A DNA stretch of 40,914 bases from a virus. The notes under the pieces were generated by a model. The model was not told the origin of the DNA, did not search any database, and saw nothing but the letters and a program-made list of their open reading frames with translations. Below, piece by piece: positions 31,143-31,700 of the stretch (position 1 is the first letter of the stretch; each line of letters begins with the position of its first letter). The stretch lies in the IMG/VR virus record IMGVR_UViG_3300045988_066297; one strand, given 5' to 3'. Both the position numbers and the translations under genes were made by a program.

Positions 31143-31700
31143 GTGTTTAAACTCCTTTTCTTTGTAAAAAACTCTGCTGATCATTGCGTATCAACGCAAT
31201 GCCATTGCAGTTCATCTCAATGCCCTCGCTATGCTATTCAAAGCTTCGCCAAGCCATAGCCGATCGTAACGGATCATCACGCTTCTCTACCATGCCATTG
31301 CGGATCAAATCGACTCTGCGCTAACCTCCGCCGTAGCCAATCAGCGCGCATCCTATCATCGCCGTTGCTTTGCGTTGCTTTGCGATTTTACTCAAATCCA
31401 CGCTTTGCCTTTGCTGATCAGAGCGTCTCCACACCACTCGCTTCTTCGCAATTGCGCTGCCGATCTGGACGGATCTGTGTATTGCTATGCCCTTGCTGTT
31501 CAATTCCGAGCATTGCATATTTTTGCCACCGCACTACATATCGATGCTGTTCGCTGCCACTGCTTTGCAATACTTCGCTTTTCCTCAGCTATGCTTTGTG
31601 TCTCCTCGCCATGCCTTCGCTGCTCAACTCAAGTCACGTCATTGCCACGCAATACCGCTGCGCGTCTACGCATTCTGCACTATGCCATTGCCATGCAACG
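31143..31700. repeat. ORF-free repeat-rich region (degenerate ATGC[C/T]nTTGC-type motifs, tandem 10-mer, hairpin)
   Basis: All three minus-strand frames contain stops. The exact 10-mer ATGCCATTGC occurs at 31199, 31292 and 31682. Relatives occur at about 31220 (ATGCCCTCGC), 31487 (ATGCCCTTGC) and 31611 (ATGCCTTCGC). Tandem GTTGCTTTGC x2 at 31364-31383. Perfect hairpin CATTGCGT-atca-ACGCAATG at 31182-31201. Confidence 0.7.

What the first reader, a model, noticed from the sequence alone, without database searches (positions are those of the whole stretch)
31143..31700. About 560-bp ORF-free, strand-asymmetric region packed with degenerate ATGCCATTGC-type repeats
Seen directly: this is the only long non-coding stretch inside an otherwise tightly packed operon. 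All minus frames have stops, and the plus-strand ORFs are Cys/Leu/Arg-rich junk. The plus strand is C/T-rich, and most G residues occur in TGC/CGC contexts. The exact 10-mer ATGCCATTGC occurs three times (31199, 31292, 31682), where chance expectation in about 560 bp is far below one. There are at least six relatives (ATGCCCTCGC, ATGCCCTTGC, ATGCCTTCGC, ATGCTGTTCGC, ATGCTTTG, ATGCAACGC). There is also a tandem GTTGCTTTGC x2 (31364-31383) and a perfect 8-bp hairpin (31182-31201) just upstream of the RAMP-like gene. Spacing is irregular, so this is not a CRISPR array. Possible roles are a second origin or iteron field, a landing pad for one of the neighbouring DNA-binding proteins (wHTH 32163-32399), or a long structured leader/ncRNA feeding the downstream RAMP-like protein.
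Basis: seen in the sequence. Interest (0 to 1): 0.65.

Follow-up and report, generated by a model that had tools for sequence, protein, structure and literature searches.

The report
Phage guide-RNA array beside RAMP gene
The gene-free stretch is a 550-base array of five-base repeats that most likely encodes guide RNAs for the neighbouring Cas7-like protein; this matches a phage "VIPR" system reported in 2026 preprints, so it is real and biologically interesting but not a new kind of thing.

Summary
Window 31167-31717 has no ORF on the gene strand (minus). The 10-mer ATGCCATTGC occurs three times, against 0.14 expected by chance. The downstream gene (30531-31142) encodes a Cas7/Csm3-like RAMP with a GxGQWR…GRF glycine loop. 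The same G-periodic array lies next to homologues of this gene in at least 74 of 90 loci. It is always on the gene's strand, either upstream or downstream, and its variable positions change quickly between near-identical phages. This matches VIPR systems (bioRxiv 2026): a Vipr RAMP filament on pentanucleotide-repeat vrRNAs that guides gapped recognition of rival phage DNA. This locus is a variant. It reads one G rather than GG, has modules of about 31 nt, lacks a 3' tail and has no conserved accessory gene. I could not identify targets. The origin, pseudogene and structured-leader readings are not supported.

The parts
31167..31717 (-). Pentanucleotide-repeat array, the putative vrRNA array. 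It has 107 units of consensus G-[C>A>T]-N-N-N, organised in about 19 modules of 4-9 units.
   Evidence: DP parse and shuffle controls. Fourier period ~5.15. Spacing histogram. The same architecture appears in 94 arrays from 76 loci.
31199..31208 (-). Identical copies lie at 31292-31301 and 31682-31691. In all, sixteen 6-nt units start (minus strand) at 31712, 31691, 31661, 31620, 31589, 31563, 31532, 31496, 31455, 31414, 31368, 31337, 31301, 31260, 31229 and 31208.
   Evidence: Family-wide logo of 965 six-nt units: G100 C82 A59 A74 N G91 | G98 C57/A34 A64.
31182..31201 (-). 8-bp hairpin inside the last module. It is followed about 12 nt later by a U6 run, then the RBS.
   Evidence: Read. The stem is kept in L008 with a loop change. 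L002 has a different 5-bp stem at the same place. It is not conserved across the wider family, so its role is unknown.
31152..31156 (-). Ribosome-binding site (AAAGGAG) of the vipr-like gene.
   Evidence: Sequence read. Homologues all start at the corresponding Met.
30531..31142 (-). vipr-like gene: a 203-aa single-domain RAMP of Cas7/Csm3-like fold. It has the glycine loop G184-L-G-Q187-W188-R189-N-S-G-K-G-R-F196 and a beta-hairpin at 128-152 carrying the invariant R132, R135 and R143 (probable thumb).
   Evidence: AF2 model, pLDDT 73, pTM 0.72. Foldseek PDB top hits are Cas7 subunits of type VII, III-A, Cas7-11 and IV-A, E 3e-7, prob 1.0. Invariant columns. Alignment to SUSP1 Vipr.
30472..30498 (-). 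Terminator-like hairpin (12 pairs) 33 nt after the vipr stop codon. It could be the end of the array-vipr transcription unit.
   Evidence: This is a consensus match only and the T-run is weak.
31701..31949 (-). Upstream 82-aa ORF. Its last codons overlap the first units of the array, so the array is probably co-transcribed with it.
   Evidence: 91% identical homologue in L008/L009. No promoter-like site lies between it and the array.

Best explanation
The region is the guide-RNA array of a VIPR-type system (Viral Interference Programmable Repeat), and the downstream 203-aa gene is its Vipr RAMP protein. The proposed mechanism is as follows. The minus strand is transcribed, read through from the upstream early genes into vipr. 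Vipr protomers bind the RNA one per ~5-nt unit. Each protomer sequesters the conserved G and the following pyrimidine and exposes the variable bases. The resulting helical ribonucleoprotein filament pairs those exposed bases discontinuously with double-stranded DNA of a competing phage or prophage and blocks its transcription.

Basis of each step:
- Shown here: the periodic array, its modular build, its strict linkage and co-orientation with the gene, the fast turnover of its variable positions, and the RAMP fold with a Vipr-like G-loop.
- Taken from the 2026 preprints on the SUSP1 and P. fulva systems: one protomer per repeat, GGY sequestration, NN pairing with a 1-nt skip, triplex R-loop formation, and silencing of rival phages.
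- Inferred for this clade: only the second G and Y are read, because the two residues that contact the first G in SUSP1 (H17, D177) are T17 and Q187 here, while W178/R179 are kept as W188/R189. Also inferred: the GCAANG|G boundary every ~6 units marks where guides are delimited or the register shifts by one base.
For: (1) Array anatomy: 107 units, 103 starting with G, 89x5 nt plus 16x6 nt, far above shuffles.
(2) Linkage: a G-periodic (5.05-5.22 nt) array lies beside homologues of the gene in 8 of 8 informative IMG/VR loci and 71 of 80 genome loci. The periodic base is always G on the gene's sense strand, never C. A stricter detector finds 55 downstream, 15 upstream, 4 on both sides and 16 undetected. 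In L006 the array sits between the gene's stop codon and a perfect intrinsic terminator, so it is part of the transcript.
(3) Only G is conserved. In an alignment of four related arrays, 45% of G columns are invariant, against 11-22% for the other bases. The AT-rich relative L006 uses GT where the window uses GC. The near-identical phage L008 (protein 98% identical) shares some modules, differs from others at the variable positions, and has gained or lost whole modules.
(4) Protein: Cas7/Csm3 fold, no Pfam, PHROG, PADLOC or NCBIfam family, and a very large phage or prophage family (more than 8000 hits; 1926 clusters at 50% identity).
(5) Link to a validated system: the SUSP1 locus (KT454805, vipr 28474-29061) was retrieved and shows GGTNN arrays on both sides. 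hhalign gives a collinear full-length alignment, E 0.002, with the G-loops GxGDWR..GRF and GxGQWR..GRF aligned. A 98-sequence family profile ranks SUSP1 Vipr first of 199 SUSP1 ORFs, E 0.008.
(6) Literature: VIPR is defined as a phage-encoded ancestral RAMP plus flanking tandem pentanucleotide vrRNAs. The preprint notes variants with YNNNG or NNNNG repeats and 'staggered' arrays with 1-nt offsets (10.64898/2026.04.26.720920). The structural mechanism is in 10.64898/2026.04.26.720927.
(7) The RNA is not more structured than shuffles (z +0.46), as expected for a protein-coated single strand.
Against: Sequence similarity to the experimentally characterised Vipr is marginal (E 0.002-0.008), so membership rests mainly on fold, G-loop and context. 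The repeat is G-Y-N-N-N, not GGYNN; GG occurs only at module boundaries. There is no 9-16-repeat tract followed by a ~40-nt conserved tail. No accessory (vap) gene is conserved next to it. Modules of 4-9 units would specify only 8-18 bases under the published NN rule, so the pairing code or the guide length in this clade is unknown. No target was found. The local 1.1-Mb search showed no excess over shuffled guides. A 16-base module pattern gave 26 IMG/VR hits, about the number I estimate for chance. Two double-module patterns gave none. No sigma-70 promoter or canonical terminator was predicted around the array. No expression data are available.
Confidence: 0.8

Rival explanations
1. The array does bind the RAMP protein, but not as a DNA guide. 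The RNA could be a scaffold, sponge or decoy. For example, it could be a long filament that soaks up host RNA-binding or Cas7-type proteins, or one that regulates vipr expression.
For: Modules are short, with conserved boundary units. No targets were found. Type IV-B Cas7 filaments are known to assemble on non-specific RNA, and a sponge role has been proposed for them (PMC7937560).
Against: The non-G positions turn over fast between near-identical phages while G is kept. That is the signature of information-carrying guide positions. A pure scaffold would not need hypervariable positions. Homologous systems have been shown experimentally to be programmable guides.
Confidence: 0.1
2. It is a DNA-level element: a second origin or iteron field, or a landing pad for a neighbouring DNA-binding protein such as the HTH_39 winged-helix protein (32163-32435).
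For: The region has dense short repeats near the replication and recombination genes (ERF, NinB, DUF6291). The period of ~5.15 is close to half a DNA helical turn.
Against: The array co-occurs with the RAMP gene, not with the replication module or the wHTH. These are absent from most related loci that still have the array. The array switches sides of the gene but never switches strand. In L006 it lies inside a terminator-bounded transcript. It has no AT-rich unwinding element. The 5.15 average is explained by a 5:1 mix of 5-nt and 6-nt units. The tandem 10-bp repeats inside the DUF6291 gene are a more conventional origin candidate.
Confidence: 0.03
3. It is a structured cis-regulatory leader or a stand-alone structured ncRNA.
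For: It is a long untranslated stretch immediately upstream of a gene, with a perfect 8-bp hairpin near its 3' end.
Against: The MFE is no better than shuffles: z +0.46, with 68 of 100 shuffles folding at least as well. There is no Rfam hit even at E<=5. In most relatives the array is downstream of the gene. Primary sequence is not conserved and shows no helix pattern; only the periodic G is kept.
Confidence: 0.03
4. It is a decayed pseudogene or a recoded gene.
For: It is the one ORF-free stretch in a dense operon. TAG is frequent on the minus strand.
Against: All three stop codons occur in every minus frame. Related phages have no intact gene here. A 5-nt period is incompatible with coding. 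The feature is maintained in loci whose RAMP proteins are only 44-65% identical.
Confidence: 0.01

Closest known systems
VIPR systems (Vipr RAMP + vrRNA). The characterised examples are the type II systems of Escherichia phage SUSP1 and a Pseudomonas fulva prophage (bioRxiv 10.64898/2026.04.26.720920 and .720927).
   Same: Both are phage- or prophage-encoded. Both have a ~20-kDa single-RRM RAMP with a G-loop (GxG-D/Q-WR...GRF) and a thumb hairpin. Both have long flanking intergenic tracts of tandem pentanucleotide repeats on the gene's strand, upstream and/or downstream, with conserved G(Y) and hypervariable other positions. Neither has cas genes or a CRISPR array.
   Different: Here the unit is G-Y-N-N-N and the first G is not conserved, which matches T17 and Q187 replacing the SUSP1 G1 contacts H17 and D177. 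The array is one continuous 551-nt tract of about 19 modules of 4-9 units (family mode 6 units, 31 nt), separated by a 6-nt unit GCAANG. In SUSP1 each vrRNA is 9-16 repeats plus a ~40-nt pseudoknotted tail. There is no conserved vap gene here. The host clade is gut and rumen Clostridia. This may correspond to the preprint's 'staggered arrays' and 'YNNNG/NNNNG' variants. I could not check that, because the figures and data files are not held.
Class 1 CRISPR Cas7 backbone on crRNA (Csm3, Cmr4, Csf2, type VII Cas7).
   Same: These are the closest solved folds. One RAMP protomer binds per fixed number of RNA bases, and a thumb flips bases out periodically.
   Different: CRISPR periodicity is 6 nt, binding is independent of sequence, and pairing is contiguous except for every sixth base. 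Here the period is 5 nt and is written into the RNA sequence. There is no repeat-spacer array, no Cas5, Cas6, Cas8 or Cas11, and no adaptation genes.
Type IV-B CRISPR-Cas (Csf1-3, Cas11 and a CysH-like PAPS-reductase-family protein).
   Same: In the window, a Cas7-like gene sits next to a PAPS-reductase-family gene (29390-30317). Type IV-B also lacks a CRISPR array and assembles Cas7 filaments on non-CRISPR RNA (PMC7937560).
   Different: There is no csf1, csf3 or cas11. The PAPS-reductase neighbour is absent from every related locus examined, including the 99%-identical L001, so the adjacency looks coincidental.
TRAP-trp leader RNA of Bacillus (from my own knowledge).
   Same: An oligomeric protein reads a short G-containing motif repeated with 2-3-nt spacers, so the period is about 5 nt.
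   Different: This is only an analogy. TRAP is an unrelated 11-mer ring that binds 11 GAG/UAG triplets to attenuate transcription. It does not present guide bases.

Membership tests
VIPR system | Vipr protein: a small single-RRM RAMP with a glycine-rich loop and a thumb. | tested here: met
   AF2 model. Foldseek top hits are Cas7/Csm3 subunits, E 3e-7, prob 1.0, TM ~0.5. G-loop GLGQWRNSGKGRF is invariant in the family. A beta-hairpin at 128-152 carries invariant Arg residues.
VIPR system | Homology to an experimentally validated Vipr (SUSP1). | tested here: inconclusive
   hhalign gives E 0.002, 21% identity over 178 collinear columns, with G-loops aligned. The family HMM ranks SUSP1 Vipr first of 199 SUSP1 ORFs, but only at E 0.008. 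The preprint itself states that RAMPs share little sequence similarity.
VIPR system | Non-CRISPR, minimal locus in a virus or provirus. | tested here: met
   The window is a temperate phage: integrase, CI/Cro-like genes, terminase, portal. There are no cas genes or CRISPR repeats. Relatives are IMG/VR contigs and prophage regions of Clostridia MAGs.
VIPR system | Flanking tandem pentanucleotide repeats (GGY/NN or a related consensus) on the vipr strand. | tested here: met
   107 units in the window. 4743 five-nt units family-wide have the logo G96 / C50 A30 T15 / N / N / N. G is always on the sense strand. The consensus is the 'related' form (YNNNG/NNNNG in the preprint's notation), not canonical GGYNN.
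VIPR system | Variable positions are hypervariable between close relatives while the G motif is fixed. | tested here: met
   Invariant columns: G 81/180, A 36/161, C 17/104, T 12/106. Module-by-module comparison of the window with L008, L002 and L003.
VIPR system | Type II vrRNA layout: 9-16 repeats followed by a conserved structured 3' tail. | tested here: not met
   Modules have 4-9 units (family mode 6) and abut each other through a 6-nt unit. There are no ~40-nt tails and no hammerhead or other Rfam hit. The locus is therefore not type II. It may be the 'staggered' layout mentioned.
VIPR system | Associated vap accessory gene. | tested here: not met
   Clustering neighbours from 90 loci finds no family present in more than 24 loci. 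The preprint lists six vap families for seven types, so a vap is not obligatory.
VIPR system | vrRNA is expressed and co-purifies with Vipr. | not testable with these tools
   There is indirect support only: co-orientation in all loci, and the L006 array lies between the stop codon and an intrinsic terminator.
VIPR system | Natural targets are found with the 1-nt-skip (xNN) rule. | tested here: inconclusive
   No excess over shuffled guides in 1.1 Mb of related loci for any of 20 pairing rules. One 16-base pattern gave 26 IMG/VR hits, about my estimate for chance; these fall in unrelated genes such as a 968-aa tail-like protein. Two 24-26-base double-module patterns gave 0 hits.
CRISPR array | Near-identical 23-50-nt repeats regularly interspaced with unique spacers. 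| tested here: not met
   No such family appears in the repeat scans. The conserved element is only about 9 nt and is spaced 21-46 nt apart.
Type IV-B CRISPR-Cas | csf1, csf2, csf3 and cas11 with a conserved cysH-like partner. | tested here: not met
   Only a Cas7-like gene is present. The PAPS-reductase neighbour is not conserved in any relative.
Iteron-type replication origin | 17-22-bp direct repeats bound by an adjacent initiator, an AT-rich unwinding element, and linkage to the replication gene. | tested here: not met
   The repeat unit is 5 nt and strand-asymmetric. The region is 50% GC. Linkage is to the RAMP gene, not to the replication genes.
Type III toxin-antitoxin (ToxIN-like) | Tandem ~36-nt RNA repeats upstream of an endoribonuclease toxin, separated from it by a terminator. 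| tested here: not met
   Modules vary in length and sequence. The protein has a Cas7 fold, not a ToxN/AbiQ fold. There is no PADLOC hit.

The most novel reading that the evidence does not exclude
This gut-Clostridia clade is a VIPR architecture that has not yet been characterised. It would use a one-guanine code (G-Y-N-N-N). The protein has lost the first-G pocket. The array is a continuous ~0.5-kb transcript punctuated every ~6 units (31 nt) by GCAANG|G. Six units is also the six-protomer turn of the free SUSP1 Vipr filament. If so, either many very short guides act cooperatively, or more than two bases per unit are read. Either would be a different pairing rule from the published xNN code.
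Probability: 0.3. Interest if true: 0.65.

Novelty: new member of a known kind. Interest (0 to 1): 0.45.

Why it matters
VIPR is a newly reported and possibly pre-CRISPR way of guiding a protein to DNA with RNA. Only Proteobacterial type II systems have been dissected so far. This locus belongs to a very large family: 1926 clusters at 50% identity, mostly prophages of gut and rumen Clostridia. Its repeat code and array layout differ from the characterised ones in three ways: a single G, ~31-nt modules and no accessory gene. Working out how it is processed and what it targets would test how general the published pairing rule is. It could also show which phages compete in the gut. For annotation, such ORF-free, strand-skewed stretches next to small unannotated genes can be recognised with a simple 5.15-nt G-periodicity scan.

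Tried and rejected
- tRNA cluster: ARAGORN found none.
- Known RNA family (ROOL, GOLLD, hammerhead and others): no Rfam hit at the gathering threshold over the whole window, nor at E<=5 over 31000-31900.
- Similar DNA in GenBank phages: none.
- Stop-codon recoding or a frameshifted gene: all three stop types occur in every minus frame.
- Half-helical-turn DNA feature: the 5.15 period is a 5:1 mixture of 5-nt and 6-nt units, not a physical 10.3-bp repeat.
- TRAP-like attenuation: kept only as an analogy once the neighbouring protein proved to be a RAMP.
- Functional link to the adjacent PAPS-reductase gene, as in type IV-B CysH: rejected because no relative shares that neighbour.
- A conserved accessory gene: none found.
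- A conserved terminal hairpin: present only in the closest relatives.
- Target prediction, first attempt: the script timed out.
- Target prediction, seeded search of 421 modules under 20 pairing/skip rules: no excess over shuffles; the few perfect hits were in the period-5 settings and were not inspected.
- Target prediction, 12-unit sliding guides under 4 rules: no excess.
- Target prediction, three IMG/VR pattern scans: hits at about chance level, or none.
- Representative-library search: it gave the family size, but it lists only close relatives, so it could not bridge to SUSP1.

Full report
**The observation.** All genes in this part of the window are on the minus strand. Between the stop codon of an 82-aa ORF (31701-31949) and the true start of the next gene (ATG at 31142, preceded by AAAGGAG), no minus frame is open. 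The stops are a mixture of TAA, TAG and TGA, so recoding is not the explanation. The plus strand is 62% pyrimidine, and 57 of its 102 G lie in YGC. ATGCCATTGC occurs three times and nowhere else in the window, against 0.14 expected by chance. The 10-bp tandem and the 8-bp hairpin are present. ARAGORN, Rfam (gathering threshold on the whole window, and E<=5 on the region) and blastn against GenBank phages all return nothing.

YGC-to-YGC distances pile up at 5/6, 10/11, 15/16 and so on up to 35/36. On the minus (sense) strand, a dynamic-programming parse of 31717->31167 gives 107 consecutive units: 89 of 5 nt, 16 of 6 nt and 1 of 4 nt. G is at the first position of 103 of them. The parse scores 147, against 31.6 +/- 7.8 for shuffles. 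Fourier power at period ~5.15 is 4.7, against a shuffle maximum of 1.9. Nothing else in the 40.9-kb window has this signal. These units cut the array into about 19 modules of 4-9 units.

**Linkage to the neighbouring gene.** Homologues of the downstream 203-aa protein were collected from IMG/VR (L001-L009) and from one genome per species (L010-L089, mostly prophage regions of gut and rumen Clostridia MAGs).
- A G-periodic array with period 5.05-5.22 lies directly next to the gene in all 8 IMG/VR loci where the flank is visible and in 71 of 80 genome loci.
- The periodic base is always G on the gene's sense strand, never C.
- With a stricter detector, 55 loci have the array downstream, 15 upstream, 4 on both sides and 16 undetected. 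Several of the 16 do show the array on direct parsing.
- In L006 the array fills the space between the gene's stop codon and a perfect intrinsic terminator, so there it is part of the transcript.
- Primary sequence is not conserved. The AT-rich L006 uses GT where the window uses GC, but the G phase is kept.
- Across 94 arrays there are 4743 five-nt units (logo G96 / C50 A30 T15 / N / N / N) and 966 six-nt units (G100 C82 A59 A74 N G91, then G98).
- The number of units per module peaks sharply at 5-7 (mode 6, which is 31 nt). It is not geometrically distributed.
- Between the window and phage L008, whose protein is 98% identical, some modules are shared, others differ at the non-G positions, and whole modules are present in only one of the two.
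- In a four-way alignment, 45% of G columns are invariant, against 11-22% for the other bases.

No neighbouring protein family is conserved with the pair. In particular, the PAPS-reductase-like gene downstream in the window is absent from all relatives.

**The protein.** It matches no Pfam, PHROG, PADLOC or NCBIfam model. It nonetheless has more than 8000 relatives in the 90%-clustered database and 1926 clusters at 50% identity. An AlphaFold model (pLDDT 73, pTM 0.72) matches Cas7/Csm3 backbone subunits of type VII, III-A, III-E and IV-A CRISPR effectors (E down to 3e-7, probability 1.0). Its C-terminus carries an invariant glycine-rich loop, G-L-G-Q-W-R-N-S-G-K-G-R-F.

**Identification.** A literature search found two 2026 bioRxiv preprints that describe exactly this arrangement as VIPR, Viral Interference Programmable Repeat. 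Their main points are:
- Vipr is a small phage-encoded RAMP. It polymerises one protomer per pentanucleotide repeat along vrRNAs made of alternating GGY and NN.
- The GGY bases are sequestered. G1 is contacted by H17 and D177, G2 by R138 and W178, and Y3 by R179 and a steric pocket.
- The NN dinucleotides pair with double-stranded DNA, skipping every third target base. This forms a triplex R-loop and represses transcription.
- Natural targets are competing phages, satellites and prophage switch regulators.
- Seven types exist. Some have YNNNG or NNNNG repeats, and some have 'staggered arrays' in which vrRNAs abut with 1-nt offsets.

As a positive control, I retrieved the SUSP1 genome. It has vipr at 28474-29061 with GGTNN arrays on both sides. 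Profile alignment of the window's family to SUSP1 Vipr is collinear over 178 columns (E 0.002) and aligns the two G-loops. A 98-sequence HMM ranks SUSP1 Vipr first among 199 SUSP1 ORFs (E 0.008). In that alignment the G2 and Y3 contacts are conserved (W188, R189). Both G1 contacts are replaced (T17 for H17, Q187 for D177). This matches the array logo, in which the position equivalent to G1 is G in only 26% of units. That residue-to-logo correspondence is my inference from a low-confidence alignment.

**Mechanism proposed.** I propose four steps.
1. The minus strand is transcribed. This is probably read-through from the early operon, since no promoter-like site precedes the array and it begins under the last codons of the upstream ORF. 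A terminator-like hairpin follows vipr at 30498-30472.
2. Vipr coats the RNA one protomer per unit, holding G and Y.
3. The variable bases of each unit are presented.
4. The filament recognises DNA of rival mobile elements and silences it.

The RNA is no more structured than shuffled sequence (z +0.46), which suits a protein-coated single strand. The role of the GCAANG|G boundary is unknown. It could be a processing site, a register shift or a filament turn marker. The free SUSP1 filament has six protomers per turn, and the family's modal module is six units.

**What remains unresolved.** Under the published NN rule a 4-9-unit module specifies only 8-18 bases, so the guide length or the pairing rule in this clade may differ. 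I could not find targets.
- Twenty pairing/skip rules tested on 421 modules, and four rules on 12-unit sliding guides, showed no excess over shuffled controls in the 1.1-Mb local set.
- One 16-base module pattern gave 26 IMG/VR hits, about the number I estimate for chance. The hits fall in unrelated genes.
- Two double-module patterns gave no hit.

I could not assign the type (I-VII) because the preprint's figures and data tables are not held.

**Rivals.** Four alternative readings were considered.
- An origin or protein landing pad is contradicted by linkage to the RAMP gene rather than to replication genes, by strand constancy despite side-switching, and by the L006 transcript context. The 10-bp tandem repeats inside the DUF6291 gene (32731-32807) are a better origin candidate.
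- A structured leader is contradicted by the folding control, the lack of helix conservation and the downstream position in most loci.
- A pseudogene is excluded by the 5-nt period and by its maintenance across proteins only 44-65% identical.
- A non-guide scaffold or sponge role for a RAMP-bound RNA cannot be excluded. It fits poorly with the hypervariable non-G positions.

**Verdict.** The finding is a genuine functional element: the guide-RNA array of a VIPR-type system. It is a new member, with variant features, of a kind first described in preprints of April-June 2026. It is not a new category.

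Noticed in passing
window 32731-32807 (inside ORF 32362-33081, minus strand): A tandem array of 10-bp units GCATCCATCT x7.3 (also scored as 30 bp x2.5) lies inside the DUF6291 gene of the replication module. 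This resembles iterons embedded in an initiator gene, as in lambda O, and is a better origin candidate than the finding.
   Followed up: no
window 29390-30317 (minus strand): A PAPS-reductase/DndC/BrxP-like gene is split into two overlapping ORFs (30003-30317 and 29390-30136). It sits just downstream of the Cas7-like gene and recalls the CysH partner of type IV-B CRISPR. No related locus shares this neighbour, including the 99%-identical L001.
   Followed up: partly
window 39790-39821 and 39985-40006: Exact 11-bp tandem repeats TGTGCCATACG (2.9 and 2.0 copies) lie immediately after the tyrosine-integrase gene (38726-39787). They may be integrase arm-type sites of attP.
   Followed up: no
window 7002-18419 (minus strand): A single 3805-aa ORF sits in the structural region. 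This is unusually long for a 41-kb siphovirus-like genome. I did not analyse it.
   Followed up: no
window 28039-28635 (minus strand): A 198-aa protein combines an N-terminal HAD/phosphoheptose-isomerase-like part with a C-terminal Lar-like restriction-alleviation domain.
   Followed up: no
L029 5551-6050: A second strong G-periodic tract with period ~4.9 rather than 5.15 (power 9.4) lies about 2 kb downstream of the vipr homologue, in addition to the arrays near that gene. It could be a different repeat class or a coding repeat.
   Followed up: no
L047, L048, L024, L054 (both flanks of the vipr homologue): Some loci carry arrays on both sides of the gene, like the SUSP1 layout with one vrRNA upstream and three downstream.
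   Followed up: partly
window 37445-38259: Divergent CI-like (HTH_3, 37828-38259, plus strand) and Cro-like (DUF739, 37445-37687, minus strand) genes mark the lysis-lysogeny switch. This is the kind of locus that VIPR guides of rival phages are reported to target.
   Followed up: no
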